A stretch of 32,000 bases of DNA, from assembly GCF_040684925.1 (NCBI RefSeq), contig NZ_JBFBGZ010000005.1, positions 5,775-37,774 on the forward strand. Reading direction: 5' to 3'. Position numbers and translations under genes: made by a program. Origin of the DNA: Arthrobacter sp. NPDC089319 (GTDB taxonomy: Bacteria; Actinomycetota; Actinomycetes; Actinomycetales; Micrococcaceae). Positions 13,120-26,310 of this stretch are shown in pieces. The notes beneath the pieces are model-generated. The model searched no databases and had not been told where the DNA came from. It worked only from the letters and a program-made list of their open reading frames with translations. Each line of letters begins with the position of its first letter. Position 1 is the first letter of the stretch.

Positions 13120-13148
13120 TTGCGCATTGTCCCGCACACGCCTATCTT
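13120..13148 (+). promoter_or_regulatory. putative promoter of the hypA-hypB-hhy operon
   Basis: TTGCGC (13120-13125), a 17-nt spacer, then TATCTT (13143-13148), followed about 22 nt later by SD GAGGTGG and hypA ATG 13171. Sequence-pattern call only. Confidence 0.25.
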
Positions 13149-13170
13149 GGAGTTCACGAGGTGGCAGACC

Positions 13171-13500: not shown

Positions 13501-14367
13501 ATGTGTACCACCTGTGGCTGTGGAGACGCCGAAAATACGAGGGTGTCGGGCCTCGAGATTGCGCCGGCCGGCCACGACCATCCACATGATCCCAGTCATC
13601 CCCATGACCATGCCCATGACCATGCCCATGCCCACGGGCATGCCCATGAACACGACCACGGGCATGCTCCCAACGGCGCGCAAACCCTTGTGCTTGAGCA
13701 GGACCTGCTCGCCAAAAACGACCTGCTCGCAGCCCGGAACCGCGGCTGGCTGGAGGGCCGGAGCATCCGCGCCCTCAACGTGATGAGCTCGCCCGGCGCC
13801 GGCAAGACCACGCTGCTGGTCAGGACTCTGCAGGAACTGGGCGACCGGCTGCGGGCCGGCGTTATCGAAGGCGACCAGGAAACGTCGCTGGATGCCGACC
13901 GCATCCGTGCACTGGGACGGCCTGTCATCCAGATCAACACGGGGGCCGGTTGCCACCTCGATGCCGACATGCTCCGCCGAGGACTCGATGCCCTAAACCC
14001 GGCCACGGATTCGACGGTGTTCATCGAAAACGTCGGCAACCTCGTGTGTCCGGCGCTCTTCGACCTAGGCGAAGCAGCCAAGGTGGTGATCATTTCGGTG
14101 ACGGAAGGTGATGACAAACCCCAGAAGTACCCGCACATGTTCATGGCGGCCGACTTGGTGATCGTCAATAAGTCGGACTTGTTGCCTTACGTGGATTTCG
14201 ATACCGGTGCGTGCCTGGAGCGCATCCGCCAGCTCAATCCGCGGACAGAATTCATGGTCGTTTCGGCCACCACCGGCGAGGGGCTGCCCCGCTGGTATGA
14301 GTGGCTCGAAGGCGACTCACCCGAGCCGGAAACCCTGACCGGGTCACTGACTACCGACGCTCACTGA
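13501..14367 (+). CDS. hypB: hydrogenase nickel-incorporation GTPase HypB with His-rich tract
   Basis: N-terminal MCTTCGCGD high-affinity metal motif, His-rich HDHPHDPSHPHDHAHDHAHAHGHAHEHDHGH, P-loop SSPGAGKTTLL, ENVGNLVCPA, and NKSDL. Confidence 0.93.
   Translation: MCTTCGCGDAENTRVSGLEIAPAGHDHPHDPSHPHDHAHDHAHAHGHAHEHDHGHAPNGAQTLVLEQDLLAKNDLLAARNRGWLEGRSIRALNVMSSPGAGKTTLLVRTLQELGDRLRAGVIEGDQETSLDADRIRALGRPVIQINTGAGCHLDADMLRRGLDALNPATDSTVFIENVGNLVCPALFDLGEAAKVVIISVTEGDDKPQKYPHMFMAADLVIVNKSDLLPYVDFDTGACLERIRQLNPRTEFMVVSATTGEGLPRWYEWLEGDSPEPETLTGSLTTDAH
13571..13668 (+). repeat. imperfect short tandem repeat (CAY GAC / CAT GCC units) encoding the HypB poly-His/Asp/Ala tract
   Basis: catgaccatgcccatgaccatgcccatgcccacgggcatgcccatgaacacgaccacgggcat. 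This is a coding low-complexity repeat. Confidence 0.7.
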
Positions 14368-14396
14368 GTCCTTCAAGGGCTCTGAAGGAGGCACTG

Positions 14397-15455
14397 ATGC
14401 CTACCGAAACTTCCTTGCAGGCCGAAGAAGCTCTCATCCACGTGCTGTGGATCAACGCGGGGCTCAGTTGCGACGGAGATTCGGTCGCGCTGACGGCGGC
14501 CACCCAGCCCAGCGTCGAGGAGATCGCGCTCGGGGCGCTGCCCGGGTTGCCGAGGATCGCCATGCACTGGCCGCTGATCGACTTCGAGTGCGGGCCCCAG
14601 GAAGGGGCCGACGACTTCCTCGAGTGGTTCCGGAAGGCGGACCGCGGCGAACTGGAGCCGTTCGTCCTGGTGGTCGAGGGCTCCATCCCGAACGAGCAGC
14701 TCCACGATCCGGGCGGCTACTGGTGCGGCTTCGGCAATGACTTGGAGACCGGACAGCCGATCACCACCAGCGAATGGCTGGACCGGCTGGCACCGAAAGC
14801 CACCGCGATCATTGCGGCCGGCACCTGCGCCACGTACGGCGGCATCCATGCGATGGCCGGCAACCCGACCGGTGCCATGGGAGTACCCGACTATCTGGGG
14901 TACGACTGGAATTCCAAAGCAGGCATCCCGATCGTTTGCGTCCCGGGTTGTCCCATCCAGCCGGACAACCTTTCGGAAACCATCACGTATCTGCTCTACC
15001 AAGCCACGGGGCAGGCACCCCCGATTCCGCTGGACGAGTCGCTGCGCCCCACCTGGCTGTTCGGCAAGACCGTCCATGAAGGCTGCGACCGCGCCGGTTA
15101 CTACGAGCAGGCCGATTTCGCCACCGAGTACGGGTCGCCGAAGTGCATCGTCAAGCTCGGCTGCTGGGGCCCAGTGGTCAAGTGCAATGTCCCGAAGCGG
15201 GGCTGGATGAACGGTCTCGGCGGCTGCCCCAACGTCGGCGGTATCTGCATCGGCTGCACGATGCCGGGATTCCCGGACAAGTTCATGCCGTTCATGGACG
15301 AACCTCCCGGCGGCAAGCTGTCAACCAATGCCGTCCGCCCGTACGGTTCGGCGATCAAGGCCTTGCGCGGCATTACGGCCAACACACTGGACAAGGAACC
15401 CAAGTGGCGCAGGCCCGGACGTGAACTTCTGACCGGTGCCCGGCGCACCTGGTAA
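14397..15455 (+). CDS. hhyS: [NiFe]-hydrogenase small subunit, group 1h/5 type (no Tat signal)
   Basis: SD GAAGGAGG upstream of ATG 14397. LWINAGLSCDGDS (N-terminal cluster motif with Asp where most small subunits have the second Cys), GTCATYGG, and a C-terminal Cys-rich region HEGCDRAGYY..CIVKLGCWGPVVKCNVP..GGCPNVGGICIGCTMPGFPD. There is no RRxF twin-arginine leader. Confidence 0.9.
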   Translation: MPTETSLQAEEALIHVLWINAGLSCDGDSVALTAATQPSVEEIALGALPGLPRIAMHWPLIDFECGPQEGADDFLEWFRKADRGELEPFVLVVEGSIPNEQLHDPGGYWCGFGNDLETGQPITTSEWLDRLAPKATAIIAAGTCATYGGIHAMAGNPTGAMGVPDYLGYDWNSKAGIPIVCVPGCPIQPDNLSETITYLLYQATGQAPPIPLDESLRPTWLFGKTVHEGCDRAGYYEQADFATEYGSPKCIVKLGCWGPVVKCNVPKRGWMNGLGGCPNVGGICIGCTMPGFPDKFMPFMDEPPGGKLSTNAVRPYGSAIKALRGITANTLDKEPKWRRPGRELLTGARRTW

Positions 15456-15488
15456 CCGAACGGCTACTTCCAGACAAGGCGAAGCACA

Positions 15489-17282
15489 ATGACCTCCACA
15501 ATTCCAACGCCTTCCCCAAGCAGCACCGGCGGCAACAACCTTGTGGAGATGGCATGGGACCCCATCACCCGGATCGTCGGCAGCCTCGGCATCTACACCA
15601 AGATTGATTTCGAGAACAACCAGGTTGTCGAGTGCCGCAGCACGTCCTCGATCTTCCGCGGCTACTCGTTGTTCATGAAAGGCAAGGATCCCCGCGACGC
15701 CCACTTCATCACCAGCCGGATCTGCGGCATCTGCGGCGACAACCATGCCACCTGCTCCTGCTATGCCCAGAACATGGCCTACGGGGTCAAACCTCCGAAT
15801 CTGGGCGAGTGGATCGTGAACCTCGGCGAAGCTGCCGAGTACATGTTCGACCACAACATCTTCCAGGAGAACCTCGTCGGCGTGGACTACTGCGAAAAGA
15901 TGGTCTCCGAAACCAACCCCGGCGTGCTGGCGAAGGCGGAGAACACCCGCGCCCCGCACGAAGCCGACCATGGCTACCGGACGATCGCGGACATCATGCG
16001 CTCCTTGAACCCGTTCACCGGCGAGTTCTACCGGGAGGCCCTGCAGGTCAGCCGGCTCACGCGTGAAATGTTCTGCCTGATGGAGGGACGCCACGTCCAC
16101 CCGTCGACGCTGTACCCAGGTGGCGTCGGCACGGTGGCGACCATCCAACTCATGACCGACTACATCACCCGGCTGATGCGCTACGTCGAGTTCATGAAGA
16201 AGGTTGTGCCGATGCATGACGACCTCTTCGACTTCTTCTACGAGGCCCTGCCGGGCTACGAGCAGGTGGGCCTGCGGCGCACCCTGCTCGGCTGCTGGGG
16301 TGCCTTCCAGGACCCGGAGGTCTGCAATTTCGAGTACAAGGACATGACCGACTGGGGCCGGAAGATGTTCGTGACTCCCGGCGTCGTGGTGGACGGAAAT
16401 CTGGTAACCACCGATCTCGTGCGGATCAACCTCGGAATACGGATCATGCTCGGTTCCTCGTACTACGAGGACTGGGAGGGCCAGGAGATGTTCGTGACGC
16501 GGGATCCGCTGGGAAACCCGGTGGACCGCCGGCACCCATGGAACCAGCACACCAACCCGAAGCCGCAGAAGCGCGACCTGTCGGAGAAGTACAGCTGGGT
16601 CATGTCCCCGCGCTGGTTCGACGGCACGGACAACCTCGCCCTGGACACCGGCGGCGGCCCGCTGGCCCGGCTCTGGTCGACGGCGCTCGCAGGGCTGGTC
16701 GACATCGGCTACATCAAGGCCACCGGCCACAGCGTGCAGATCAACCTGCCCAAGACCGCGCTGAAGGGGCCGGTATCCTTCGAGTGGCACACCCCGCAGT
16801 GGAGCAACACGCTGGAGCGCAACCGGGCCCGGACATACTTCCAGGCCTACGCCGCCGCAGCCGCACTGCATTTCGCCGAGCAGGCGCTCGAAGAGATCCG
16901 CGCCGGCAGGACCAAGACCTGGGAAACCTTCGAAGTCCCGGACGAGGCCTTCAGTTGCGGCTTCACCGAGGCCGTGCGCGGCGTGCTGTCGCACCACATG
17001 GTGATCCGCGACGGCAAGATCGCCAACTACCACCCGTACCCGCCGACCCCGTGGAACGCGAGCCCCACGGATTCCCAGGGCATTTCCGGGCCGTACGAGG
17101 ACGCGGTCCAGGGGCAGCCCATCTTCGAGGAGAACGACCGCGAGCATTTCAAGGGGATCGACATCATGCGCACGGTGCGTAGCTTCGACCCGTGCCTGCC
17201 CTGCGGTGTCCACATGTACCTGGGCAAGGGACAGACCCTGGACAAACTGCACTCGCCAACCCAGACGATGACCGGCGAGTGA
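15489..17282 (+). CDS. hhyL: [NiFe]-hydrogenase large subunit, group 1h/5 (high-affinity, O2-insensitive 'actinobacterial' type)
   Basis: 597 aa. L1 motif TSRICGICGDNH and L2 motif SFDPCLPCGVH, which as I recall are the published group 5/1h signatures. A 22-aa extension (MYLGKGQTLDKLHSPTQTMTGE) follows the terminal His, as expected for protease-processed precursors. Confidence 0.95.
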   Translation: MTSTIPTPSPSSTGGNNLVEMAWDPITRIVGSLGIYTKIDFENNQVVECRSTSSIFRGYSLFMKGKDPRDAHFITSRICGICGDNHATCSCYAQNMAYGVKPPNLGEWIVNLGEAAEYMFDHNIFQENLVGVDYCEKMVSETNPGVLAKAENTRAPHEADHGYRTIADIMRSLNPFTGEFYREALQVSRLTREMFCLMEGRHVHPSTLYPGGVGTVATIQLMTDYITRLMRYVEFMKKVVPMHDDLFDFFYEALPGYEQVGLRRTLLGCWGAFQDPEVCNFEYKDMTDWGRKMFVTPGVVVDGNLVTTDLVRINLGIRIMLGSSYYEDWEGQEMFVTRDPLGNPVDRRHPWNQHTNPKPQKRDLSEKYSWVMSPRWFDGTDNLALDTGGGPLARLWSTALAGLVDIGYIKATGHSVQINLPKTALKGPVSFEWHTPQWSNTLERNRARTYFQAYAAAAALHFAEQALEEIRAGRTKTWETFEVPDEAFSCGFTEAVRGVLSHHMVIRDGKIANYHPYPPTPWNASPTDSQGISGPYEDAVQGQPIFEENDREHFKGIDIMRTVRSFDPCLPCGVHMYLGKGQTLDKLHSPTQTMTGE

Positions 17283-17288
17283 CCCGCC

Positions 17289-18218
17289 ATGCCAGCCGGG
17301 GAGACACGCCAGATCGGTGACCGCATCGGGACTCTGCTGGACGCGCTCGGGGCCGGCGGCGCCGTCGCCCGCGGGCGCGCGGAGGATCTGGTCCGCGAGG
17401 TGGCTGACCTGTACGGGGCGGGGCTGGAACGGCTGCTGGAAATCCTCAGGGAGCGCGGCGTGCTTGATCCCGCCACCATGCAGGCGCTGACCGCGGATGA
17501 GCTGGTGTCCGCTGTGCTGCTCATCCACGGGCTGCACCCGCAGGATCTGCAGACCCGGGTTGCCGCCGCATTGGACAGCGTCCGGCCCTACCTCGGCTCA
17601 CACGGCGGCGACGTGGAACTGCTGGAAATCAACGACGACGGCGTGGTGCGGCTGCGCCTGCTGGGCACCTGCCAGGGCTGCCCGTCGTCGTCCGTTACCC
17701 TCAAGTACGCGGTGGAGGACGCGATTGAAGCCGCCGCCCCGGAAGTGGCCGCGATCGAGGTGGTCGAGGCCGAAAGGGCCGCCGCCTCGCCGGCCGTGAT
17801 CCCCGTGGACGCACTGCTGGTCCGGCTGAACCGGGAACCCGATGGTTCCGGCGACCAGCCGGCGGGCTCCTGGGAACCGTTGCCCCAACTGGCCGAGCTT
17901 GAACCCGGGGAGGTGGCGGGCTTCCAGATCGGCGGCTATTCCCTGCTGGCCTGCCGGACCGGGCAGGACGTGTACGCCTACCGCGACTACTGCCCGCGCT
18001 GCACCCGCTCGCTGGAAGGCGCTACGCTGCAGCGGGCACTCGCGGCACCGGTCGGCGGCGGCCTGCTGCGCTGCCCGTCCTGCCGCAGCCACTTCGACGT
18101 GCGGCAGGCCGGCGCCTGTCTGGAGGACAAGGCCATGCATCTGGATCCGCTGCCGCTGCTGAGCCGCGGCGGCGTGATGTGCGTGGCCGTCCCGGTGTCC
18201 GCCGGTCACGGGGGCTGA
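17289..18218 (+). CDS. Fe-S protein: NifU C-terminal (Nfu) domain fused to a Rieske-fold-like domain with CxxC...CxxC
   Basis: The central part VRPYLGSHGGDVELLEINDDGVVRLRLLGTCQGCPSSSVTLKYAVEDAIE is an Nfu/NifU_C domain with CxxC. The C-terminal part WEPLPQLAELEPGEVAGFQIGGYSLLACR..VYAYRDYCPRCTRSLEG...LLRCPSCRSHFDVRQAG...PLPLL follows the Rieske/NirD-like topology, but with Cys in place of the His ligands. The ATG lies 6 nt after the hhyL stop. Confidence 0.8.
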   Translation: MPAGETRQIGDRIGTLLDALGAGGAVARGRAEDLVREVADLYGAGLERLLEILRERGVLDPATMQALTADELVSAVLLIHGLHPQDLQTRVAAALDSVRPYLGSHGGDVELLEINDDGVVRLRLLGTCQGCPSSSVTLKYAVEDAIEAAAPEVAAIEVVEAERAAASPAVIPVDALLVRLNREPDGSGDQPAGSWEPLPQLAELEPGEVAGFQIGGYSLLACRTGQDVYAYRDYCPRCTRSLEGATLQRALAAPVGGGLLRCPSCRSHFDVRQAGACLEDKAMHLDPLPLLSRGGVMCVAVPVSAGHGG

Positions 18219-18219
18219 G

Positions 18220-18876
18220 ATGGATATTGCGCTGCTGCGCAAGATCGCGGCCACCAAACGGACCGAGCCCGGTGCGCGCTGCGAAATGTGCGGCGAGCCC
18301 ATCGCGGAGCAACACCAGCATGTGGTCGATGTGGAAAGCCGCGGCATGCTGTGCACCTGCCGCCCGTGCTACCTGCTCTTCACTGACGCCTCCGCCTGGC
18401 TCCGCTACCGCGCCGTCCCCGACCGCTACCTTTCCTTCCCCGACTTCGAGCTCGGCCCCGGCCAGTGGGAGGAGCTCGAAATCCCGGTGGGTCTGGCCTT
18501 CTTCTTCCACAGTTCCAAGTTGGAGCGCACGGTCGCGTTCTATCCGGGCCCCGCGGGAGCCACCGAATCAGAACTTTCGCTGGAGGCATGGGGAGCGGTG
18601 TTAGCGCGCAATCCGCACCTGTCCGTCGCGGCCGCTGATACGGAGGCGCTGCTGATCCGCGGTCCGGGACCCGAGCGGGCACAGGCGGAGTGCTATCTGG
18701 TTCCGGTGGACGCCTGCTACGAACTGGTGGGCCAGCTGCGCCGTGTGTGGCGCGGGTTCGACGGCGGCCAGCAGTCCCGAGAGCAGCTCAGGATGTTCTT
18801 CGAGCAGGTCCAGAGCCGGTGCCGGCCGGTGCGCGAGGAGGACCGGGGCGGCGCCGGGCCGGGGGAGTTGCCGTGA
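18220..18876 (+). CDS. conserved hypothetical protein of group 1h hydrogenase loci (I believe DUF5947-like); N-terminal Cys cluster
   Basis: 218 aa. ATG is 1 nt after the preceding stop, and GC3 is high. Cys motifs CEMCGE...CTCRPC. No catalytic motif recognised. Confidence 0.7.
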   Translation: MDIALLRKIAATKRTEPGARCEMCGEPIAEQHQHVVDVESRGMLCTCRPCYLLFTDASAWLRYRAVPDRYLSFPDFELGPGQWEELEIPVGLAFFFHSSKLERTVAFYPGPAGATESELSLEAWGAVLARNPHLSVAAADTEALLIRGPGPERAQAECYLVPVDACYELVGQLRRVWRGFDGGQQSREQLRMFFEQVQSRCRPVREEDRGGAGPGELP

Positions 18877-19529
18877 CCGACTTGTCCTTCACGGTCCTCG
18901 ATATCCAGCCCGAGCCCTACTCGGCGGCACCCCAGCTGACGGCCCGGCTGCGGGTCACCGAGTCCAGCGGCGCCGTCGTCCATGCGATCGCGCTGCGCTG
19001 CCAGGTCCGCATTCTGCCGCAGCGGCGCGGCTACGGCCCGGGCGAGGAACCGGGGCTGCTGGATCTCTTCGGCGAGCGCGGCCGCTGGCCCTCGACGCTT
19101 AAGTCTTTCCTGTGGCTGCAGTGCAGCGCCCTCGTGCAGGGCTTTACCGACAGCACCGAGGTTGAGCTGCCGCTTCCTTGCACCTTCGATTTCGAGGTCG
19201 CGGCGTCCAAATACCTGAACGCCCTGCAGGAGGGCATGATCCCGCTGGAATTGCTGTTCTCCGGCACCGTCTTCACCAAGGGCCAAACCGGGTTCACGGT
19301 GGAACAGGTTCCGTGGGACCTCGAGGCCTCCCACCAGCTGCCGGTGGAGGCCTGGCGCCGGCTCATGGACCTGCACTTCCCCAACACCGGCTGGCTCCGG
19401 CTGGACCGCGAGGTGCTCGCATCGTTGGCCCATTTCAAGGCAGTCCGGGGCCTTACCTCGTGGGAGGCAACCATTCAGGCACTGCTGGCCGGCGCCACCG
19501 CAGACGTTATGGGTGAGCCGCCGCGATGA
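18873..19529 (+). CDS. conserved hypothetical protein of group 1h hydrogenase loci (I believe DUF6084-like)
   Basis: GTG 18873 overlaps the upstream TGA (GTGA). VTDLSFTVLDIQPEPYSAAPQLTARLRV...; 218 aa, beta-rich. The portion of the 18690 ORF upstream of 18873 is out-of-frame overlap with the preceding gene. Confidence 0.7.
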   Translation: MTDLSFTVLDIQPEPYSAAPQLTARLRVTESSGAVVHAIALRCQVRILPQRRGYGPGEEPGLLDLFGERGRWPSTLKSFLWLQCSALVQGFTDSTEVELPLPCTFDFEVAASKYLNALQEGMIPLELLFSGTVFTKGQTGFTVEQVPWDLEASHQLPVEAWRRLMDLHFPNTGWLRLDREVLASLAHFKAVRGLTSWEATIQALLAGATADVMGEPPR

Positions 19530-20974
19530 ACATGGGACTGAGCCTGGCCCGCGCCGTCGCCGATGCAGTCCTCTACGAGGGGTACCTGCTCTACCCGTAC
19601 CGCGCATCGTCCCGGAAGAACCAGGCACGCTGGCAGTTCGGTATCCTCGGCCCGCCCGGCGCCGCGGCGGCGGGGGTCGGTGAGGAACCGTACCTGTCCG
19701 CGGACTGCCTGCTCACGGCCGGCCGGAACGCAGCGCTGGAGGTGCACTTGCGCTTCCTCCAGCTGCAGACCCGTACCGTGGAGGAAAAGTGCGACGACGG
19801 CGCGTTCAGGGCCGTCGGACAGCTCATCCTGGGTGCCACCCAGTGGCTGACCTGGGATGAAGCCGTGGAGCAGGAAATTGCCTTGGGCCCGTTCACGTTG
19901 GCGGATCTGGCCGGCCCGCAGGGAGGCGGGCTGGCGCTGCCGGTCGACGTGCCGGCCGGCCGGGACACAGAGCTGCTCACCGACAGCGTGGGGCAGATCG
20001 CCGGGCGGCTGGAGCGGCGCCGTCGTCGGCTCCGTGGAGAGGTCAGGCTGACCGCTACGCCACACGGCGACGGAATCGTTCGGCTGCGCGTCACCGCGGA
20101 AAACCTCGGTCCTGCTACGGACATGCCCGGAGGCGCAGACAAACAGGATGCGATCGCCTCCTCCTTCATCGGAACCCACGCCCTGCTGACCCTGCAGGAC
20201 GGGGATTTCCTCTCCCTGCTCGACCCGCCGGAAGCGGCAGCAGCCGCGGCGCAATCCTGCACGCAGCACCGCTGCTGGCCGGTCCTCGCCGGACCCGAAG
20301 GCCAGACCGACGTGCTGCTCATCTCGCCCATCATCCTCTACGACCACCCCGCCATCGCGCCGGAAAGCTCGGTGGAACTGTATGACTCGACGGAGATCGA
20401 CGAGATTCTCACCCTGCGGGTGCTGACCTTGACGGACGAGGAAAAGGCAGAGGCCCGCGCCACCGATCCGCGGGCGGCAGCGGTGATCGATCGCTGCGCC
20501 GCGATGTCGCCCGAGGAACTGCAGCAGCTGCACGGCGTCCTGCGCGATCCCCACGCCCCGGCCTTCCCGACGCTCACCGAAGAACCGGCGGCCGGATCCG
20601 CGCACAACAGCGGACCCGGGAGCCTCCCGTGGTGGGATCCCGCGGCGGACGCCAGCGTCCATCCCGACGAGGACGCCGTGCTGATCGGAAGCGTTCCGGT
20701 CGCCCGCGGCAGCCGGGTGCGGGTGAAACCGGGCCGGCGGGCAGATGCGCAGGATCTCTTCTTCGCCGGCCAGTCGGCGAGGGTCACCAGCGTCCATTTT
20801 GACGTCGACGGCAGCACTCATGTCGGCCTGGTCTTCGAAGAGGACCCCGCAGCCGACCTGCACGAGGGCTACGGCCGTTCCTTCTACTACGCGCCGGACG
20901 AACTGGAGCCTCTTGATCCGGCCCCGTCCGGCGGACTGACCGAAACCCAGCACGGAAGGGACAACCAATCATGA
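19526..20974 (+). CDS. conserved hypothetical protein (482 aa) of group 1h hydrogenase loci
   Basis: ATGA start/stop overlap at 19526-19529, and high GC3. N-terminal AVLYEGYLLYPYRASSRKNQARWQFGILGP. The C-terminal ~90 aa are beta-rich (VRVKPGRRADAQDLFFAGQSARVTSVHFDVDGSTHVGLVFEED). No known motif recognised. Confidence 0.7.
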   Translation: MNMGLSLARAVADAVLYEGYLLYPYRASSRKNQARWQFGILGPPGAAAAGVGEEPYLSADCLLTAGRNAALEVHLRFLQLQTRTVEEKCDDGAFRAVGQLILGATQWLTWDEAVEQEIALGPFTLADLAGPQGGGLALPVDVPAGRDTELLTDSVGQIAGRLERRRRRLRGEVRLTATPHGDGIVRLRVTAENLGPATDMPGGADKQDAIASSFIGTHALLTLQDGDFLSLLDPPEAAAAAAQSCTQHRCWPVLAGPEGQTDVLLISPIILYDHPAIAPESSVELYDSTEIDEILTLRVLTLTDEEKAEARATDPRAAAVIDRCAAMSPEELQQLHGVLRDPHAPAFPTLTEEPAAGSAHNSGPGSLPWWDPAADASVHPDEDAVLIGSVPVARGSRVRVKPGRRADAQDLFFAGQSARVTSVHFDVDGSTHVGLVFEEDPAADLHEGYGRSFYYAPDELEPLDPAPSGGLTETQHGRDNQS

Positions 20975-21090
20975 GAGCTGTAGGCATGGTGGCCACGGGC
21001 CTGCTATCCGCCGTCGCGCTCGGCCTCGTCTACGTCGGGCTGCGGTCGCTCCCGGACATCCGGCGCTACCTGAAGGTGAGCCGGATGTGA
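20971..21090 (+). CDS. 39-aa single-pass membrane micro-protein (not in the ORF track)
   Basis: My translation: MRAVGMVATGLLSAVALGLVYVGLRSLPDIRRYLKVSRM. Its ATG overlaps the upstream stop (ATGA, 20971-20974). Its stop overlaps the GTG of the protease gene (ATGTGA, 21085-21090). It has one hydrophobic helix followed by a basic tail, and third-position GC like the neighbouring genes. Confidence 0.55.
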   Translation: MRAVGMVATGLLSAVALGLVYVGLRSLPDIRRYLKVSRM

Positions 21091-21629
21091 AGACCCGGTT
21101 CCAACCGCGCCCAGCCGTCGGCGGCACCGCCGCGGACCTCACCGGACGGACCCTGGTGGCCGGCGTCGGCAACATGTTCCTGCGCGACGACGGCTTCGGT
21201 CCGGAGGTCGCCCGGCGCCTGAGCGCAGCCGCGGCCGGTCAGCGGCCCGGAGTGCAAGTGGTCGACTATGGAATCCGGGGGATGCATCTGGCCTACGACC
21301 TGCTGGCCGGGGTGGACGCGCTGGTCCTGGTGGATACCGTCCCTCCCGATGCGCACGATGCACAACCGGGAAGCATCCGGGTCCTTCGCGTCGGTGCCGA
21401 AGACCTCGCGGAAGCAGGGCCGCTGGATCCTCATGGCATGGATCCCGCCGCGGTGTTGAACCGGCTGCGTTCACTTGGCGGCACACTGCCGCCAACTTAC
21501 GTCGTCGGCTGCGTGCCGGCCGATACGACGGAAGGCATCGGGCTCTCGCCGGCGGTCGCTGCCGCTGTGCCGAAGGCGATGGCCGTCGTCGTCACGCTCC
21601 TCGAAGACAACGTTCCCCATCCCAGCTAA
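21087..21629 (+). CDS. [NiFe]-hydrogenase maturation endopeptidase (HyaD/HybD/HupD family)
   Basis: LVAGVGNMFLRDDGFGPEVARRL..VVDYGIRGMHLAYDLL..DALVLVD...LDPHGMDP carries the family motifs GxGNxxxxDDGxG and the metal-binding Asp/His; 180 aa. Confidence 0.85.
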   Translation: MKTRFQPRPAVGGTAADLTGRTLVAGVGNMFLRDDGFGPEVARRLSAAAAGQRPGVQVVDYGIRGMHLAYDLLAGVDALVLVDTVPPDAHDAQPGSIRVLRVGAEDLAEAGPLDPHGMDPAAVLNRLRSLGGTLPPTYVVGCVPADTTEGIGLSPAVAAAVPKAMAVVVTLLEDNVPHPS

Positions 21630-21641
21630 GGAGGTACCGCC

Positions 21642-21899
21642 ATGTGCCTAGGAATACCGGGGCGGGTCATCGGGCTCATTGAAGGTTACGGAGGCCAGCT
21701 CGCCCTCGTGGATGTTGCCGGCGCGGAGCGGAAAATCAACATTGGGCTGCTGGACGACGGCCCACCCGAAGTCGGCAGCTGGATCCTGATCCACATGGGC
21801 TTCGCCTTGGAACGGGTGGATGCAGAGGGCGCGGAGGAGGCGATGAACGGCCTCGAATTGATGGGGCAAGAGCGGGATCCCGGCGGCAGATTGCCCTAG
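21642..21899 (+). CDS. hypC: hydrogenase assembly chaperone HypC/HybG/HupF
   Basis: N-terminal MCLGIPGRV with the essential Cys2; 85 aa; SD AAGGAGG upstream. Confidence 0.9.
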   Translation: MCLGIPGRVIGLIEGYGGQLALVDVAGAERKINIGLLDDGPPEVGSWILIHMGFALERVDAEGAEEAMNGLELMGQERDPGGRLP

Positions 21900-21963
21900 A
21901 CCGCGATTGCTGGAATTCGAACAGCACTGTTCATTCCAGCACCGACTATTTGAGGAGGAGACC

Positions 21964-22320
21964 ATGTCAGAGGACCACCCGTCCGAGACCGGTGAACAGC
22001 GGGAACACGAGACCGACCGGCAGGGCAACGACAACAAGGGCGCAGCCCGCGCCTGGGGTAGCGAACCTCCGGCGAAAGAACCGGAGCAACCCGGCCAGGA
22101 GGAGACTCCCGACGACGCCAGGATGGCTCCGGAAGGAGTCGGCACGAGCATGACCCGCGGCGGCGAAGAAGTGGCCGGGCAGGACGGCAAAGAGCCGGGC
22201 CGGGAAGACACCGGGACCCAGGGTGCATCCGGACGCCCGACGGGCACGTCAACGCCCCGCGATTCCAGCGGGGTCGACACCGATGAGGCCTCGGGGGAGG
22301 CCGCGCCACAGGCGCCGTAG
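21964..22320 (+). CDS. acidic, low-complexity (probably disordered) small protein, function unknown
   Basis: Strong SD GAGGAGGAG 3-4 nt upstream of ATG 21964. 118 aa rich in E/D/G/P/T (MSEDHPSETGEQREHETDRQGNDNKG...KEPGREDTGTQGASGRPTGTSTPRDSSGVD). GC3 is consistent with coding. Confidence 0.5.
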   Translation: MSEDHPSETGEQREHETDRQGNDNKGAARAWGSEPPAKEPEQPGQEETPDDARMAPEGVGTSMTRGGEEVAGQDGKEPGREDTGTQGASGRPTGTSTPRDSSGVDTDEASGEAAPQAP

Positions 22321-22326
22321 TCCTTG

Positions 22327-22345
22327 GTTGCCCGCCCGGGGCAAC
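22327..22345. terminator. hairpin between convergent genes (possible bidirectional terminator)
   Basis: GTTGCCC (22327-22333), loop GCCCG, GGGCAAC (22339-22345). No clear U-tract. Confidence 0.3.
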
Positions 22346-22371
22346 GTTCCCGAGGCTAAGGCTCCCGGGAG

Positions 22372-23145
22372 CTAATGTTCGAGCGCGATCGCCGCGCCCC
22401 GATGCTCGACGCCCTTGTTGGCGATGTCCAGGTGCCGGGCGGTGAAGTGCTGCAGTTGCCGCAGACCTCGCGGGGTCAGGACATCACACACCCAGTCCCA
22501 ATGGAGGGAGACGACATCGCCGACGTTGAGCGTCTCCACGAAACCCGTCCCCGCCACGGCGTATTTCGCGGTCTCGACCACCGGTTCGCCGACGGAGAGA
22601 AACGTACCGTTCCAGACCAGCTGAGGCGAGCTGACCACGGCCTCGTCGCCCGCAAGGCCGCGGACCTGTCCCCAGCGGATCCGGCAGCGGTCCAGCACGG
22701 TGAGCGCGGTGGCGTACCGCCGCTCGTCACGCAGCAGGCCCAGCCACGGGTAAATCTCGAGGACATGGAAGCTGTGGTGGGGAACGCCGCCGGCGAGGAC
22801 CCCTTCCACCAAGTGCGGGAACTGTTGGCCGGTCCGAGCGCGGAAGCGGTCCTCCATGGAATTGCCCATGTTCCGAATCCCCACGGAATCCAACAGGTCA
22901 TTGCCCACCCAATAGGCCTCGACAACGCGGCGGTCCAATGGATCCGGGATGCCGTTCGCTCCGGCGATCAGCTCCAGGTACGGGTAGGCGCCGGCGAAAC
23001 CTTTCGCGAGTTCCCGGAGCCCCTGATCGGTCACACCCGTCTGTCCGTAGTGGAGAAGCGCGTCGCTGTCCGGTGGACCGCAGCTGCCCCGGGAATTGGG
23101 CGGGTAAGCGTAACGGACAAACAACTGGGCGCCGTCGATGACCAT
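22372..23145 (-). CDS. conserved hypothetical protein (I believe DUF6390-like), commonly seen near actinobacterial hyp/hhy genes
   Basis: Start ATG 23145 with SD GGAAGGTGG upstream. MVIDGAQLFVRYAYPPNSRGSCGPPDS...; 257 aa. The ORF-track extension to 23646 runs antisense through the ABC-transporter leader and SBP gene and is rejected. Confidence 0.65.
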   Translation of the reverse strand: MVIDGAQLFVRYAYPPNSRGSCGPPDSDALLHYGQTGVTDQGLRELAKGFAGAYPYLELIAGANGIPDPLDRRVVEAYWVGNDLLDSVGIRNMGNSMEDRFRARTGQQFPHLVEGVLAGGVPHHSFHVLEIYPWLGLLRDERRYATALTVLDRCRIRWGQVRGLAGDEAVVSSPQLVWNGTFLSVGEPVVETAKYAVAGTGFVETLNVGDVVSLHWDWVCDVLTPRGLRQLQHFTARHLDIANKGVEHRGAAIALEH

Positions 23146-23341
23146 GATGTGCCACCTTCCGCTGATGCGTGTTTTGACGGTAGCACCGGGGTTGACACAC
23201 CGGCAAGGAACATGGACGGGCCCCGTCGAGTCGTTGACAGGCCTGATCCCGAGGGCGATGCTGTTTACACTGAAGCGCCGCGGCCTCAGCATCCCTGATG
23301 CCCGCAACGGCGCAAGGCGACAGCATCCGGGGAGCGTACCC

Positions 23342-24475
23342 ATGAACGCTGAAATCAACCGCCGGTCAATCCTGCAGGTCATCGGACTGGGCGGCGGCGT
23401 CGCCTTTCTAGCCGGCTGCGGTGCCGGCCGCACGGCACCGGCACAGACCGAAGGCAGTACGTCTGCAGGCATCAGCTTCCGTGACCAACAGGGCCGGACC
23501 ATCTCTTTCGACCGGCCGGTCACCCGTGTGGTGACCATCCCCATGCCGGCCGCCTCACTGCTGGTGGCGGTGGACGGCGGCGCAGACCATCTGGCCGCCA
23601 TGCACAACGCATCCTGGGTCGCCATGCGCGACGGCATCCTCGGCACGATGTTCCCCCAGGCCCTTCAGCTTCCACATGAGATCGCCACACAGGATTTCAC
23701 GCCCAACGTCGAGAGCGTACGGGCGCTGGACCCCGACGTCGTCATCCAATGGAGCGATGCCCAGCTGGTGGCCCCCTTGGAAAACGCAGGGTTGAAAGTG
23801 GTCGGTTTGGTCAACAACGGCACGCAGGAGGACGTGGACGCGTGGATCGCCATGTTTTCCGCCATGCTCGGGAAGCCCGAACGGGCCACAGAGATCAAGG
23901 AGCACAGCGACCGGGAACTCGCCGAGGTCAAGGAACTCGCGGCCGGGCGCAGCGGCCCCGGCCCCAGCATCCTGTACTTCAACCGGTTTGAGGGCGGACT
24001 CAAAGCCGCGGCCGCCAAGACCTACAACGACTTCTACATCAAGCTGGTAGGCGGCAGCAATCCCGCCACCGGCGAGGACGCCCTGCCTGGTACCGGGATG
24101 GTGGGACTGGACGTGGAACAGGTCCTGAGCTGGGACCCGGAGGTCATCCTGCTGGGTAATTTCGACGGCGCCATGCCGCAGGACGTCTACAACGATCCGG
24201 TCTGGAAGAACGTCGCAGCGGTCCAGTCCCGGCGGGTCTACAAGGTACCGCTCGGCGGCTATCGCTGGGATCCACCAGGCCAGGAATCGCCGCTCATGTG
24301 GCACTGGCTGAGCGGCATCGCCTTCCCGCAGGAGCAGTCCGGCTTGCGCGGCAAAGTAGCCGACTACTACCGGATGCTCTACAACTACCGGCCCACCAAC
24401 GCGGACCTCGATCGGATCCTCTGGACCGAGCAGAACCGCCAATCCGCCGACTATCAGCAGTTCAATGCTGGATGA
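23342..24475 (+). CDS. ABC transporter substrate-binding lipoprotein, Fe-siderophore/cobalamin (FecB/BtuF, cluster A-II) type
   Basis: MNAEINRRSILQVIGLGGGVAFLAGC has a twin-Arg-like n-region plus lipobox; 377 aa. ...RVVTIPMPAASLLVAVDGG... and ...WDPEVILLGNFDG... are typical of this periplasmic-binding-protein class. Followed by a FecCD permease and an ATPase. Confidence 0.8.
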   Translation: MNAEINRRSILQVIGLGGGVAFLAGCGAGRTAPAQTEGSTSAGISFRDQQGRTISFDRPVTRVVTIPMPAASLLVAVDGGADHLAAMHNASWVAMRDGILGTMFPQALQLPHEIATQDFTPNVESVRALDPDVVIQWSDAQLVAPLENAGLKVVGLVNNGTQEDVDAWIAMFSAMLGKPERATEIKEHSDRELAEVKELAAGRSGPGPSILYFNRFEGGLKAAAAKTYNDFYIKLVGGSNPATGEDALPGTGMVGLDVEQVLSWDPEVILLGNFDGAMPQDVYNDPVWKNVAAVQSRRVYKVPLGGYRWDPPGQESPLMWHWLSGIAFPQEQSGLRGKVADYYRMLYNYRPTNADLDRILWTEQNRQSADYQQFNAG

Positions 24476-25574
24476 GGCGGCCCATCCACGGTCGAAAAAA
24501 CGGCGAAAGGCGGCTCGCCGTTCCCCGCTCCGCCGGGACCGGCGTGAGCGCCCCGGCGGCCCGTCCATCTTCACCCCGATCGCCGTCTCCGCCGGCCTGC
24601 TGACGGTCGTCTGCCTGGTGGCGCTGGCGGTGGGCCGCTACAACGTCCCGCTCTGGCATGTGGCGCAGATTCTGGCCGCCCAATTTTTCCCCGCCGGCCC
24701 CGACGTCAGCGCCACGGAAGAAAGCGTGGTTGTCTTGGTGCGGCTGCCGCGGGTCCTGCTCGCGCTGTTGGTGGGGGCCGGGCTGTCCATCGGCGGCGCT
24801 GCCCTCCAGGCTATCTTCCGTAACCCGCTGGTCAGTCCCGAGATCATCGGGGTGTCGTCCGGCGCATCCTTTGGCGGCGCTCTGGCCCTGCTTCTCGGTT
24901 TGGGGTCACTGCTGCTTGTCAGCGGCGCGTTCGTCTTTGGTCTATTGGCCCTCGTCATGCTCTTCCTGATCACCTCCGGGCGCGGCGGGACGCCGCTGCT
25001 GATGATCGTGCTTGGCGGGGTAGTCATCGGCTCCTTCTTCTCCGCGCTCGTCGCCTTCATCACCTACATCGCGGATCCGAACACCACACTGCCCGCGATT
25101 GTCTTCTGGCTGCTCGGCAGCGTTGCATCCGCGACCTTCGCGAAGGTCCTGGTGGCGGCGATCCCTGTCCTGCTCGGCACCACCGTGCTGTTGGTGCTGC
25201 GCTGGCGGATCAACGTGCTCTCCCTGGGCGACGACGACGCTGCCGCGCTGGGGCTGCGACCCGCGACCCTGCGCTGGGTGGTGCTGGTGGCCGTCGCGCT
25301 GATGGTGGCAGGCGCCGTCGCCGTCAGTGGGGCGGTCAGTTGGGTGGGTCTGGTGATCCCGCATGTGGCCAGGATGTGGGTGGGGCCCGACCACCGGGTG
25401 CTGCTGCCGGTGTCGTTCCTGCTCGGCGGAACCTACCTCATCGTGATCGACACCATCGCCCGGACGCTGACGGCCGGGGAGATTCCGCTCGGAGTGCTCA
25501 CCGCCCTGATCGGCGCGCCGGTGTTCTTCCTCCTCCTGCGCCAAAACCGGGACAGGATCTGGGACAGTGCTTGA
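24465..25574 (+). CDS. FecCD/BtuC-family ABC transporter permease
   Basis: LLVGAGLSIGGAALQAIFRNPLVSPEIIGVSSGASFGGAL and ...IPLGVLTALIGAPVFFLLL are hallmark FecCD segments; about 9-10 TM. The basic N-terminal extension makes the exact start uncertain. Confidence 0.85.
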   Translation: MLDEAAHPRSKKRRKAARRSPLRRDRRERPGGPSIFTPIAVSAGLLTVVCLVALAVGRYNVPLWHVAQILAAQFFPAGPDVSATEESVVVLVRLPRVLLALLVGAGLSIGGAALQAIFRNPLVSPEIIGVSSGASFGGALALLLGLGSLLLVSGAFVFGLLALVMLFLITSGRGGTPLLMIVLGGVVIGSFFSALVAFITYIADPNTTLPAIVFWLLGSVASATFAKVLVAAIPVLLGTTVLLVLRWRINVLSLGDDDAAALGLRPATLRWVVLVAVALMVAGAVAVSGAVSWVGLVIPHVARMWVGPDHRVLLPVSFLLGGTYLIVIDTIARTLTAGEIPLGVLTALIGAPVFFLLLRQNRDRIWDSA

Positions 25575-26310
25575 GCTCGACGGCGTAGGGTTCGGCTACA
25601 GCCCGCGGGAATGGACATTCCGCGGCGTCAGCTTCCAAGTCAACGCCGGCACCGCGACGGCGGTGCTGGGGCCTAACGGCAGCGGAAAGACGACACTGGT
25701 GCGCTGCGCTGCCGGCTTGCTGTCTCCGGTGGAGGGCGCCGTCCGCCGGGACGGAGACGCCGGCTACGTGCCGCAGGCGCATGGGAGCGCTTTCGCCTAC
25801 CCCGCACTGGAAATGGTGCTGATGGGGCGGGCCCGGCAGGTCCGCTTTTTCCGCTCACCCGGACCGGCGGACCGAGCGGCGGCGCTGGAAGCGATGGACC
25901 GGATCGGCATCGCTGAACTGCAGGACCGGCTGTTTCCCACCCTGAGCGGCGGCGAGCAGCAACTGGTCCTGCTCGCCCGCGCCATCGCCACCGGCTGCCC
26001 CGTCCTGATCCTCGACGAGCCCGCCACCGGGCTGGACCTGAAGAATCAGGCCCGCATCCTGACGCTGCTGCGCGAACTGTGCTCCGACGGCATGACCGTA
26101 CTGCTGAGCACGCACCACCCCGACCACGCGCTGTATCTGGCGGATCGGGTCGTCCTGATGGGCGGATCCGGGCCGACAACCGGGACGGCGGAAGAGTTGC
26201 TCACCGACAGGGAACTCTCCGCGCTGTACGGCGTTCCGGTCAGCACGCTCCTGTACTCCGACGGAGACACGCAACAGCGCACCATCGTTGTCCACTACGG
26301 AGGGCTTTGA
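25567..26310 (+). CDS. ABC transporter ATP-binding protein
   Basis: GTG start overlaps the permease stop. Walker A GPNGSGKTTL, signature LSGGEQQ, Walker B VLILDEP, H-loop STHH. Confidence 0.9.
   Translation: MLELDGVGFGYSPREWTFRGVSFQVNAGTATAVLGPNGSGKTTLVRCAAGLLSPVEGAVRRDGDAGYVPQAHGSAFAYPALEMVLMGRARQVRFFRSPGPADRAAALEAMDRIGIAELQDRLFPTLSGGEQQLVLLARAIATGCPVLILDEPATGLDLKNQARILTLLRELCSDGMTVLLSTHHPDHALYLADRVVLMGGSGPTTGTAEELLTDRELSALYGVPVSTLLYSDGDTQQRTIVVHYGGL

What the first reader, a model, noticed from the sequence alone, without database searches (positions are those of the whole stretch)
18220..20974. Three translationally coupled proteins of unknown function embedded in the hydrogenase operon
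ORFs of 218, 218 and 482 aa lie between the Fe-S protein and the maturation protease. They are chained by start/stop overlaps: a 1-nt gap at 18218/18220, GTGA at 18873-18876, ATGA at 19526-19529, and ATGA at 20971-20974 into the next gene. Such coupling suggests stoichiometric co-production.

- The first has a CxxC...CxCxxC cluster (CEMCGE / CTCRPC), suggesting a metal site.
- The second has no motif I recognise.
- The third has a conserved-looking N-terminus (YEGYLLYPYR...WQFGILGP) and a small beta-rich C-terminal domain.

I recall that equivalents accompany group 1h/5 hydrogenases across phyla (referred to as hhaABC, DUF5947/DUF6084) without experimentally assigned roles. They could be assembly, oligomerisation/tethering or quinone-coupling factors specific to atmospheric H2 oxidation. 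This is my best candidate for an undescribed functional module in the window.
Basis: partly seen in the sequence, partly recalled or inferred. Interest (0 to 1): 0.7.

Follow-up and report, generated by a model that had tools for sequence, protein, structure and literature searches.

The report
Unexplained accessory genes of Hhy hydrogenase
Three real, tightly packed genes travel with one class of oxygen-tolerant hydrogen-consuming enzyme in many bacteria; they were already known as unexplained companions, and natural gene fusions now suggest that they help build the enzyme rather than carry its electrons.

Summary
In detail: ORFs of 218, 218 and 482 aa lie at exactly the stated coordinates with the stated overlaps. 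One correction: the gene entered at 20971 is a 39-aa membrane micro-protein (DUF6893), not the protease.

The window is from Arthrobacter sp. NPDC089319. It carries a group 1h [NiFe]-hydrogenase cluster: nicO, hypA, hypB, hhyS, hhyL, hhyE, A, B, C, duf6893, protease, hypC.
- A is DUF5947.
- B is DUF6084.
- C has no Pfam family but belongs to a large family (about 3,900 clusters at 50% identity).

The order is conserved in 80 of 80 genome loci and in Cupriavidus and Methylocystis plasmids. The proteins are already in the literature as unknown-function HhaABC, PHG067-069 and MSMEG_2717.

New here:
- Natural fusions link HhyE-like to A, B to C, and C to the maturation protease.
- C has a beta domain related to the N-terminal "chassis" of the DISARM helicase DrmA, plus an SH3-like tail.
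- A keeps six Cys and two His invariant and has no structural analogue in the PDB.
- A, B and C diverge as fast as the maturation factors do, not as slowly as the enzyme subunits.

Best reading (about 0.45): a lineage-specific late-assembly module. A role in redox or membrane coupling remains possible. This is not a new discovery, but it is a well-posed open question.

The parts
17289..18218 (+). HhyE-like protein (309 aa): NifU-like domain plus a weak Rieske-like C-terminal domain. It is the upstream neighbour, and in some lineages its N-terminal half is fused to A.
   Evidence: Pfam NifU 6e-23 and Rieske 2e-4. A 375-aa protein in L085/L084 joins a HhyE-like N-terminal half (31% identity to window HhyE residues 31-158, E 1e-11) to DUF5947.
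18220..18876 (+). Protein A (218 aa), DUF5947; orthologue of C. necator PHG067.
   Evidence: Pfam PF19372, E 7e-73. The orthologue in pHG1 is annotated DUF5947. AlphaFold model: pLDDT 82.4, pTM 0.79. No PDB fold match (best E 0.24).
18280..18369 (+). Cys/His-rich N-terminal element of A (residues 21-50): C21-x2-C24, H32-x-H34, C45-x-C47-x2-C50. A distal invariant C166 lies at 18715-18717.
   Evidence: All eight residues are invariant in a cross-phylum alignment of six sequences. In the 65-sequence alignment C45, C47, C50 and C166 are invariant, and C21, C24, H32 and H34 are nearly so. The secondary-structure order is knuckle, beta-hairpin 33-37/43-46, helix 48-52. There are weak sub-threshold C4 zinc-finger matches.
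18873..19529 (+). Protein B (218 aa), DUF6084; orthologue of PHG068. No cofactor motif; only C103 is an invariant Cys.
   Evidence: Pfam PF19562, E 8e-92. Invariant residues. Occurs fused to C in P0474, seen on two independent contigs. No PDB sequence relative.
19526..20974 (+). Protein C (482 aa), an unnamed family; orthologue of PHG069.
   Evidence: No Pfam or NCBIfam family. 3,912 cluster representatives at E <= 1e-3. AlphaFold model: pLDDT 86.6, pTM 0.74.
19577..19642 (+). C residues 18-39: invariant motif EGYxLYPYRxSxxKNxxRWxFG.
   Evidence: Invariant across Actinomycetota, Proteobacteria and metagenome lineages.
19691..20326 (+). C residues 56-267: large all-beta domain related to the N-terminal region of the DISARM helicase DrmA.
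   Evidence: Foldseek hit to 7s9w_A (DrmA), E 5e-6. The PADLOC DrmA HMM matches C residues 63-283 to profile positions 84-300 of 1018, E 1.9e-4; 34 of 82 family members match, best E 1.8e-10.
20327..20536 (+). C residues 268-337: conserved acidic segment SPIxLxDxPxxAPxS ... DxTEIDExLxLR, followed by helices.
   Evidence: Invariant residues D273, D287, E290, D292, E293, E306, D314 and H336. Helices at 292-337 in the model.
20540..20617 (+). C residues 339-364: disordered linker of variable length.
   Evidence: pLDDT below 50. The segment is deleted in Methylocystis and expanded in P0464 and P0373.
20675..20911 (+). C residues 384-462: small SH3-like beta-barrel.
   Evidence: Foldseek matches to PetP (2n5u, TMt 0.65; 7r0w_V, TMt 0.76; probability 1.0) and to nitrile hydratase beta chains.
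20971..21090 (+). DUF6893 micro-protein (39 aa): one transmembrane helix plus a conserved tail, D-x2-RY-x5-M at the C-terminus. Coupled to both C and the protease.
   Evidence: Pfam PF21833, E 2e-12. Kyte-Doolittle 19-residue maximum of 2.08. Alignment A4. Unannotated copies are present in C. necator pHG1 and M. parvus.
21087..21629 (+). HycI/HupD-type maturation endopeptidase (180 aa). In seven divergent lineages it is fused to the C-terminus of C.
   Evidence: TIGR00072, E 1e-32. Fusions P0378, P0394, P0421, P0422, P0430, P0439 and P0445.
21642..21899 (+). HypC chaperone (85 aa), the last gene of the run.
   Evidence: Pfam HupF_HypC, E 5e-20.
14397..17282 (+). HhyS and HhyL, the group 1h [NiFe]-hydrogenase small and large subunits. 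This is the enzyme the module accompanies.
   Evidence: Translations. HhyL is 78% identical to C. necator HofG.

Best explanation
A, B and C are soluble accessory proteins of the group 1h (Hhy) [NiFe]-hydrogenase. I propose that they act as a lineage-specific late-maturation and assembly module, together with HhyE and the C-terminal endopeptidase.

Proposed mechanism (all inferred, none shown):
- B and C form a scaffold. It consists of C's DrmA-like beta 'chassis', an acidic helical segment and a flexibly tethered SH3-like domain.
- The scaffold holds the nickel-loaded HhyL precursor and/or apo-HhyS next to the protease.
- A is a Cys6His2 metal-binding protein that works with the NifU-like HhyE on the small-subunit or metal-centre side.
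- After cleavage and subunit pairing the helpers leave, so they are absent from the purified enzyme.

Shown: the genes are real and conserved, they are syntenic with 1h hydrogenases, and they are joined to one another and to the protease by natural fusions.

Inferred: physical complex formation, the client protein, and the metal bound by A.
For: 1. Fusion network.
- The N-terminal half of a HhyE-like protein is fused to A in L084/L085.
- B is fused to C in P0474, on two independent assemblies.
- C is fused in frame to the HycI protease in seven representatives. These are only 40-56% identical to one another, and their nearest relatives are unfused, which suggests repeated fusion.
- A protease acts only during maturation.

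2. Invariant gene order. hhyS-hhyL-hhyE-A-B-C-(duf6893)-protease-hypC holds in 80/80 loci wherever the contig reaches and in C. necator and M. parvus. In one lineage C-HycI sits among hypC/hypA, upstream of hhyS.

3. Co-occurrence. In the plasmid collection the 13 records with a 1h HhyL are exactly the 13 with C.

4. Evolutionary rate, Arthrobacter versus Cupriavidus identities.
- A 40%, B 42%, C 37%.
- Protease 46%, HypC 41%, HhyE 41%.
- HhyL 78%, HhyS 67%.

5. Cofactors and localisation. B and C have no redox-cofactor motif, and none of the three has a transmembrane segment. [quoted passage not shown]

6. Purified enzyme and genetics.
- Purified 1h enzyme contains only HhyL and HhyS (M. fumariolicum, PMC7174314). 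The same holds for the C. necator enzyme, from my own knowledge of Schafer et al. 2013/2016.
- Deleting hhyE abolishes activity even with an artificial acceptor, and the authors themselves allow an assembly role (PMC6883350).
Against: - There is no experimental datum on A, B or C.
- M. fumariolicum SolV is reported to lack these genes yet makes an active, membrane-associated 1h enzyme. The module therefore cannot be universally required for 1h maturation.
- One lineage (L089/L090) lacks A at the conserved position.
- Each C-protease fusion was seen on a single contig. Some could be assembly frameshifts, although seven divergent in-frame cases make that unlikely.
- Gene fusion shows functional linkage, not the kind of function.
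- No similarity to any known Hyp/Hox/Hup maturation factor was found.
- A's invariant Cys/His residues could equally bind a redox-active Fe-S cluster.
- In T. roseum hhaABC are reported on the structural operon, not the maturation operon.
Confidence: 0.45

Rival explanations
1. Redox and membrane-coupling module. A is the physiological electron acceptor of HhyS, alone or together with the Rieske-like HhyE. B and C form a docking scaffold. The DUF6893 micro-protein anchors the assembly to the membrane so that electrons reach menaquinone.
For: - A has six invariant Cys and two invariant His.
- PHG067/MSMEG_2717 has been proposed as an electron acceptor (PMC6883350).
- Hhy is tightly membrane-bound, has no transmembrane segment, and feeds menaquinone (bioRxiv 769216).
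- DUF6893 is the only membrane element in the cluster and is conserved from Actinomycetota to Proteobacteria.
- In T. roseum hhaABC are co-transcribed with hhyLS and induced 5.5-fold in persistence.
Against: - C is repeatedly fused to a maturation protease.
- B and C have no cofactor motifs.
- A's Cys spacing and secondary-structure order look like a zinc treble clef rather than a ferredoxin, and it gives no Fe-S Pfam hit.
- M. fumariolicum lacks the genes but has a membrane-associated, high-affinity enzyme. C. necator has them, plus DUF6893, yet its enzyme is cytoplasmic with low affinity.
- The trio evolves about as fast as the Hyp proteins do.
Confidence: 0.25
2. Post-assembly maintenance or quality-control factors. 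The trio stabilises, oligomerises, repairs or protects the mature enzyme (for example its metal centres against O2) during long-term persistence. It is needed neither for first assembly nor for electron transfer.
For: - Expression rises in starvation and persistence together with hhyLS (PMC4377017).
- The trio is dispensable in at least one 1h-bearing organism, and A is dispensable in one lineage.
- NifU-like partners are typical Fe-S carrier or repair proteins (established knowledge of NfuA).
- C has a scaffold-like architecture.
Against: - Fusion to the endopeptidase points to the pre-cleavage stage.
- There is no direct evidence of any kind.
- In proteobacterial and several metagenomic HhyE-like proteins the NifU CxxC is missing, so Fe-S delivery cannot be the general role.
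Confidence: 0.15
3. The three proteins do not work together. They are independent factors that only share an operon, and the fusions are by-products of overlapping reading frames.
For: 4-nt overlaps are common in this genome, including in unrelated operons. Such overlaps make accidental fusions easy. Most of the fusions were seen on one contig each.
Against: - The order is invariant in 80/80 loci and across phyla.
- The B-C fusion is replicated in two independent assemblies.
- Seven divergent C-protease fusions keep the frame through long downstream domains.
- C occurs in the plasmid collection only where a 1h HhyL does.
Confidence: 0.1

Closest known systems
HhaABC, PHG067-PHG069 (C. necator pHG1) and MSMEG_2717-2715 (M. 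smegmatis): 'conserved hypothetical proteins' of group 1h/5 hydrogenase clusters
   Same: Same families, same order and same overlaps directly after hhyL and the NifU-like gene and before the protease. A is DUF5947 and B is DUF6084, as annotated in pHG1. The literature treats them as unknown-function ORFs.
   Different: Nothing essential; this is an Arthrobacter instance. Identity to the C. necator proteins is only 37-42%. The one-to-one mapping of T. roseum trd_1876-1874 onto A, B and C was not checked. The name 'hha' is also used for Hyp-like genes.
Hydrogenase-specific auxiliary maturation proteins of membrane-bound group 1d enzymes (HoxO/HyaE, HoxQ/HyaF, HoxR, HoxT, HoxL, HoxV in C. necator)
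   Same: The proposed way of working is the same: isoenzyme-specific helpers encoded between the structural genes and the hyp genes, absent from the purified enzyme, and acting around subunit maturation under O2 (established knowledge; an analogy only).
   Different: No sequence or profile similarity to any of these families. Group 1h small subunits lack a Tat signal, so the client step must differ.
N-terminal 'structural chassis' of the DISARM helicase DrmA (PDB 7S9W chain A)
   Same: C residues ~63-283 match the DrmA profile at positions 84-300 of 1018. 34 of 82 family members match, best E 1.8e-10. The model also hits 7s9w_A by Foldseek at E 5e-6. In DrmA this half holds other domains in place and contacts DrmB.
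   Different: C has no RecA/helicase domains, no defence-island context and no DrmB partner. The global superposition is poor (TM 0.24). A profile of the C family does not retrieve the 7S9W sequence. This is a shared domain, not shared function.
PetP (cytochrome b6f accessory subunit) and the SH3-like domain of nitrile hydratase beta
   Same: The C-terminal domain of C (residues 384-462) superposes on PetP with TMt 0.65-0.76 and probability 1.0. Both are small SH3-like barrels used as protein-docking modules.
   Different: Fold-level resemblance only (15-21% identity). There is no evidence of common ancestry or of binding a respiratory complex.
HucM, the membrane-associated stalk of the group 2a hydrogenase Huc
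   Same: It is the functional analogy for the rival reading: an operon-encoded non-catalytic protein that links an atmospheric-H2 hydrogenase to menaquinone (PMC10017518, listed; details from my own knowledge).
   Different: No similarity was tested or found. A, B and C have no membrane segment, and they are not found in purified 1h enzyme.

Membership tests
Pfam DUF5947 (PF19372) | Whole-protein score above the gathering cut-off (25 bits) over the full model | tested here: met
   A scores 244.4 bits, E 7e-73, covering model positions 1-176 of 177.
Pfam DUF6084 (PF19562) | Whole-protein score above the gathering cut-off (25 bits) over the full model | tested here: met
   B scores 307 bits, E 8e-92, covering model positions 1-210 of 213.
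PHG069 / MSMEG_2715-like family (unnamed) | Full-length homology to the ORF that follows DUF6084 in group 1h clusters | tested here: met
   C aligns over 94-98% of its length with the pHG1 and M. parvus ORFs (E 3e-58 and 2e-58). No Pfam or NCBIfam model exists for it.
HhaABC (group 1h accessory trio) | Encoded directly downstream of hhyS-hhyL (and hhyE where present), in the same orientation | tested here: met
   Seen in the window. The order is kept in 80/80 loci; the six loci that lack hhyL are cut off by contig ends.
HhaABC (group 1h accessory trio) | Co-occurrence with a group 1h large subunit and absence elsewhere | tested here: inconclusive
   Plasmids: 13 records with a 1h HhyL are the same 13 records with C. 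All inspected distant members whose contigs extend beyond the gene sit in hydrogenase clusters; L088 was too short to tell. However, only the best 80 of more than 593 genome hits were seen, and M. fumariolicum is reported to lack the genes.
Fe-S electron carrier (ferredoxin- or Rieske-type), for protein A | Canonical cluster-binding motif or domain (CxxCxxCxxxCP; CxH...CxxH) or a match to a Pfam Fe-S family | tested here: not met
   There are no Fe-S family hits; the only weak hits are sub-threshold C4 zinc-finger matches. The motif is CxxC-x7-HxH-x10-CxCxxC plus C166. Actual metal content cannot be determined with these tools.
Known [NiFe]-hydrogenase maturation factors (HypA-F, HupK/HoxV, HyaE/HoxO, HyaF/HoxQ, HoxR, HoxT) | Profile match to the respective Pfam or NCBIfam models | tested here: not met
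   A, B and C give no hits, while the neighbouring protease and HypC are recognised in the same scans.
DrmA (DISARM helicase) | SF2 helicase core (tandem RecA domains) with full-length profile coverage | tested here: not met
   The match is confined to profile positions 84-300 of 1018. C has no helicase domain. Only the N-terminal domain is shared.
Stable subunit of the Hhy holoenzyme | Co-purifies with HhyL and HhyS | not testable with these tools
   Literature only. Purified M. fumariolicum enzyme shows two bands, HhyL and HhyS, but that organism is said to lack the genes. The C. necator enzyme is described as two subunits (my own knowledge of Schafer et al. 2016).

The most novel reading that the evidence does not exclude
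A, B and C, together with the conserved DUF6893 micro-protein and HhyE, are the long-sought apparatus that docks the otherwise soluble group 1h hydrogenase onto the membrane and passes its electrons to menaquinone. In this reading A carries a redox-active Cys/His-ligated centre, and the DrmA-like scaffold of C plus its SH3-like domain act as the adaptor.
Probability: 0.2. Interest if true: 0.8.

Novelty: new member of a known kind. Interest (0 to 1): 0.45.

Why it matters
Group 1h hydrogenases are a main biological sink for atmospheric H2 and are candidates for O2-insensitive catalysts. Two things are still unknown: which extra factors are needed to make them, which limits heterologous production, and how an enzyme without membrane segments is tied to the respiratory chain.

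This trio, with HhyE and the DUF6893 micro-protein, is the set of conserved genes in the cluster that remains unexplained. The fusion network found here (HhyE-A, B-C, C-protease) gives a concrete, testable ordering of partners. It also suggests which genes must be co-expressed to obtain active enzyme.

The shared domain between C and the DISARM helicase DrmA is an unexpected evolutionary link, and it gives the first non-defence context for that 'chassis' domain.

Tried and rejected
Searches that found nothing useful:
- Sequence and profile searches of A, B and C against PDB sequences found nothing significant.
- Foldseek of the A model against the PDB found nothing significant (best E 0.24).
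- NCBIfam and PHROGs gave no hits.
- hhalign of B against C showed no internal homology.
- The Phage_TAC_7 hit on C residues 287-336 is below Pfam's cut-off and lies in an acidic helical segment, so I treated it as spurious.
- The promoter and terminator scan of 11500-24000 gave counts at or below the shuffled expectation, so it does not help define the transcription unit.

Hypothesis tested and rejected:
- I tested whether the DUF6893 anchor is absent from C. necator, whose enzyme is cytoplasmic. It is not: unannotated DUF6893-like ORFs are present in pHG1 and in M. parvus.

Tools or material not available:
- An evolutionary-rate-covariation analysis across the 80 loci could not be completed because the script machine was lost.
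- The papers of Schafer 2013, Constant 2011 and Greening 2015 are not held in the library.
- The reported absence of the genes from M. fumariolicum could not be checked directly and rests on PMC7174314.


Full report
OBSERVATION

The ORF list, the sequence and my translations reproduce the finding exactly.
- A: 18220-18876 (ATG, 218 aa).
- B: 18873-19529 (GTG, 218 aa).
- C: 19526-20974 (ATG, 482 aa).

All three are on the + strand. There is a 1-nt gap after the upstream gene, then overlaps of GTGA, ATGA and ATGA.

One correction is needed. The ATGA at 20971 does not lead into the protease. It leads into a 39-aa ORF, 20971-21090 (MRAVGMVATGLLSAVALGLVYVGLRSLPDIRRYLKVSRM), which matches Pfam DUF6893 (E 2e-12). 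That ORF overlaps the GTG start of the protease at 21087 (ATGTGA). The run of coupled genes is therefore hhyE, A, B, C, duf6893, protease.

Overlaps of this kind also occur in the unrelated transporter operon at 23138-26310. They are normal for this genome and are weak evidence for stoichiometric complexes.

CONTEXT

C is 100% identical to a hypothetical protein of Arthrobacter sp. NPDC089319 (taxonomy). Pfam and NCBIfam identify the surrounding genes:

| Gene | Coordinates |
|---|---|
| NicO nickel transporter | 11779-12906 |
| HypA, HypB | 13102-14367 |
| HhyS, HhyL | 14397-17282 |
| NifU + Rieske-like protein (HhyE-like) | 17289-18218 |
| A (DUF5947, E 7e-73) | 18220-18876 |
| B (DUF6084, E 8e-92) | 18873-19529 |
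| C (no family) | 19526-20974 |
| DUF6893 | 20971-21090 |
| HycI/HupD-type endopeptidase | 21087-21629 |
| HypC | 21642-21899 |

This is a group 1h (Hhy) uptake hydrogenase cluster. The large subunit is 78% identical to that of the Cupriavidus necator 'actinobacterial hydrogenase'.

DISTRIBUTION AND SYNTENY

All three families are large.
- A: 7,720 database proteins.
- B: 2,743.
- C: about 8,000, or 3,912 cluster representatives at 50% identity.

A scan of species-representative genomes found at least 593 relatives of C, and the best 80 were fetched. tblastn with the window's proteins gave these results for the 80 loci:
- Every one keeps the order hhyS-hhyL-hhyE-A-B-C-(duf6893)-protease-hypC.
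- The six loci without hhyL are cut off by a contig end.

The same order and the same 4- to 8-nt overlaps occur on C. necator pHG1 (PHG064-070) and on a Methylocystis parvus plasmid. They also occur in distant metagenomic lineages.

In the plasmid collection the 13 records with a 1h-type HhyL are exactly the 13 with C. Two Rhizobium plasmids carrying a different hydrogenase lack it.

I found no member outside a hydrogenase cluster. I could inspect only a small fraction of the family.

WHAT IS ALREADY KNOWN

- They also appear as 'conserved hypothetical proteins hhaABC', induced 5.5-fold in persisting Thermomicrobium roseum (PMC6776052).
- MSMEG_2717/PHG067 is named as a possible electron acceptor (PMC6883350).
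- No paper in the library mentions DUF5947 or DUF6084, or assigns a function.
- PMC7174314 states that the homologous hypothetical genes are absent from Methylacidiphilum fumariolicum SolV. Its 1h enzyme is nevertheless active and membrane-associated, oxidises sub-atmospheric H2, and purifies as HhyL plus HhyS only.
- C. necator has the trio but a low-affinity, cytoplasmic enzyme.

The module therefore tracks most of the 1h lineage, not the 'atmospheric' phenotype, and it is not universally essential.

ANATOMY

Protein A
- The model has pLDDT 82. It shows an N-terminal CxxC knuckle, a beta-hairpin and a helix carrying CxxC. That order fits a treble-clef zinc site; this is inferred from the order of elements only. 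An alpha/beta domain follows.
- There is no PDB analogue.
- C21, C24, H32, H34, C45, C47, C50 and C166 are invariant from Actinomycetota to Proteobacteria. That is enough ligands for two metal sites.

Protein B
- It has no cofactor motif; only C103 is invariant among its Cys.

Protein C (pLDDT 86.6)
- An N-terminal helix, then the invariant EGYxLYPYRxSxxKNxxRWxFG segment.
- A large beta domain (residues 56-267).
- An invariant acidic stretch, SPIxLxDxPxxAPxS...DxTEIDExLxLR, with helices (residues 268-337).
- A disordered, length-variable linker.
- An SH3-like barrel (residues 384-462) that superposes on PetP and on nitrile hydratase beta.

The beta domain of C hits the DISARM helicase DrmA by Foldseek (7s9w_A, E 5e-6). 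Independently, the PADLOC DrmA profile matches it at positions 84-300 of 1018; 34 of 82 family members match, best E 1.8e-10. In DrmA this N-terminal half is a 'structural chassis' that holds domains in place and contacts DrmB, and it had no known homologues (PMC9142583).

None of A, B or C has a membrane segment. DUF6893 has one.

GENE FUSIONS

Three kinds of natural fusion tie the module together.
1. A 375-aa protein in L084/L085 joins a HhyE-like NifU-like half (E 1e-11 to window HhyE) to DUF5947.
2. P0474 is DUF6084 fused to C, and it is found on two independent assemblies.
3. Seven representatives are C fused in frame to the HycI protease. They are 40-56% identical to one another, and their nearest relatives are unfused. 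This suggests repeated fusion, although each was seen on a single contig.

One of these fusions sits among hypC and hypA, upstream of hhyS.

One lineage lacks A altogether at the conserved position. B and C with the protease therefore look like the constant core.

RATES OF DIVERGENCE

Between Arthrobacter and Cupriavidus:

| Protein | Identity |
|---|---|
| HhyL | 78% |
| HhyS | 67% |
| Protease | 46% |
| B | 42% |
| HypC | 41% |
| HhyE | 41% |
| A | 40% |
| C | 37% |

The trio behaves like the helper proteins, not like the enzyme subunits.

INTERPRETATION

The most economical reading is that A, B and C, with HhyE and the endopeptidase, form a 1h-specific late-maturation and assembly module.
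- B and C act as a scaffold that presents the HhyL precursor and/or HhyS to the protease.
- A acts as a metal-binding partner of HhyE.

I put this at about 0.45. Linkage to a protease, the lack of cofactor motifs in B and C, absence from purified enzyme, and the loss of dye-linked activity in the hhyE mutant all point this way. The reported absence of the genes from M. fumariolicum and the total lack of experiments weigh against it.

The main rival (about 0.25) is a redox and membrane-coupling role, with A as acceptor and DUF6893 as anchor. It would answer a long-standing question but fits the fusions and the phyletic exceptions less well. A maintenance or protection role (0.15) and mere co-location (0.1) remain possible.

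VERDICT

The genes are ordinary members of known but uncharacterised families.

The value added here is:
- the fusion network;
- the DrmA-like domain;
- the invariant Cys6His2 set in A;
- the recognition of a conserved, often unannotated micro-protein.

Together these turn a 'known unknown' into specific experiments.

Noticed in passing
window 20971-21090 (+); L081 about 11002-11100; L082 about 10750-10848: A 32-45 aa single-helix micro-protein (DUF6893) with an invariant tail, D-x2-RY-x5-M at the C-terminus. It sits either between C and the protease or just after the protease. Unannotated copies exist in C. necator pHG1 (MKGFLKYLVLPALVVALLANIKDIRRYIRIRSM) and in M. parvus. It is the only membrane element in the cluster and a candidate anchor for the membrane-bound Hhy.
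   Followed up: partly
window 22372-23646 (-): A 424-aa DUF6390 protein lies convergent to the cluster. Homologues lie within about 10 kb downstream of C in 65 of the 80 related loci, mostly on the same strand as the cluster. It may be another uncharacterised accessory gene of the hydrogenase.
   Followed up: partly
window 21907-22320 (+): A 137-aa acidic, Gly/Glu/Thr-rich, low-complexity ORF directly after hypC. It has no family and was found in only four close Arthrobacter loci. It may be a disordered protein or may not be a gene.
   Followed up: partly
L081 7112-7690; L082 7198-7722; L083 6079-6603; L089 6583-7143: The HhyE-like proteins of Proteobacteria and several metagenomic lineages are short (174-192 aa). 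They lack both the Rieske-like domain and the CxxC of the NifU-like domain that the window's HhyE has (GTCQGCPSS). Fe-S binding therefore cannot be the conserved function of this protein.
   Followed up: partly
L089 and L090 (GCA_041825655.1 and SRR18192416): A lineage in which DUF5947 (A) is missing from the conserved position. The HhyE-like gene is followed after 16 nt by a DUF6084 gene with a short N-terminal extension, then C, the protease and DUF6893.
   Followed up: partly
L081 4208-5263; L082 4305-5384: The group 1h small subunit is annotated in RefSeq as 'hydrogenase expression protein HypE' in C. necator and M. parvus. This looks like a propagated mis-annotation, and PMC13332983 notes the same for R. 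equi.
   Followed up: no
L084, L087, L089, L090; contig of P0445: YceI-family genes (often after DUF6893) and a hemerythrin gene recur inside 1h clusters of some lineages. YceI proteins bind polyisoprenoids, which may bear on quinone coupling.
   Followed up: no
L013 (MAG labelled Candidatus Sericytochromatia): This contig carries a B-C-protease-hypC segment that is 58% identical to the Arthrobacter protein, among otherwise actinobacterial best hits. Either the cluster was transferred horizontally or the bin is contaminated.
   Followed up: no
window 864-1937 (-), 4338-5744 (+): A QcrA-like Rieske subunit gene and a cytochrome bd oxidase subunit I gene lie a few kb upstream of the hydrogenase cluster. 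In M. smegmatis Hhy is reported to feed both terminal oxidases.
   Followed up: no
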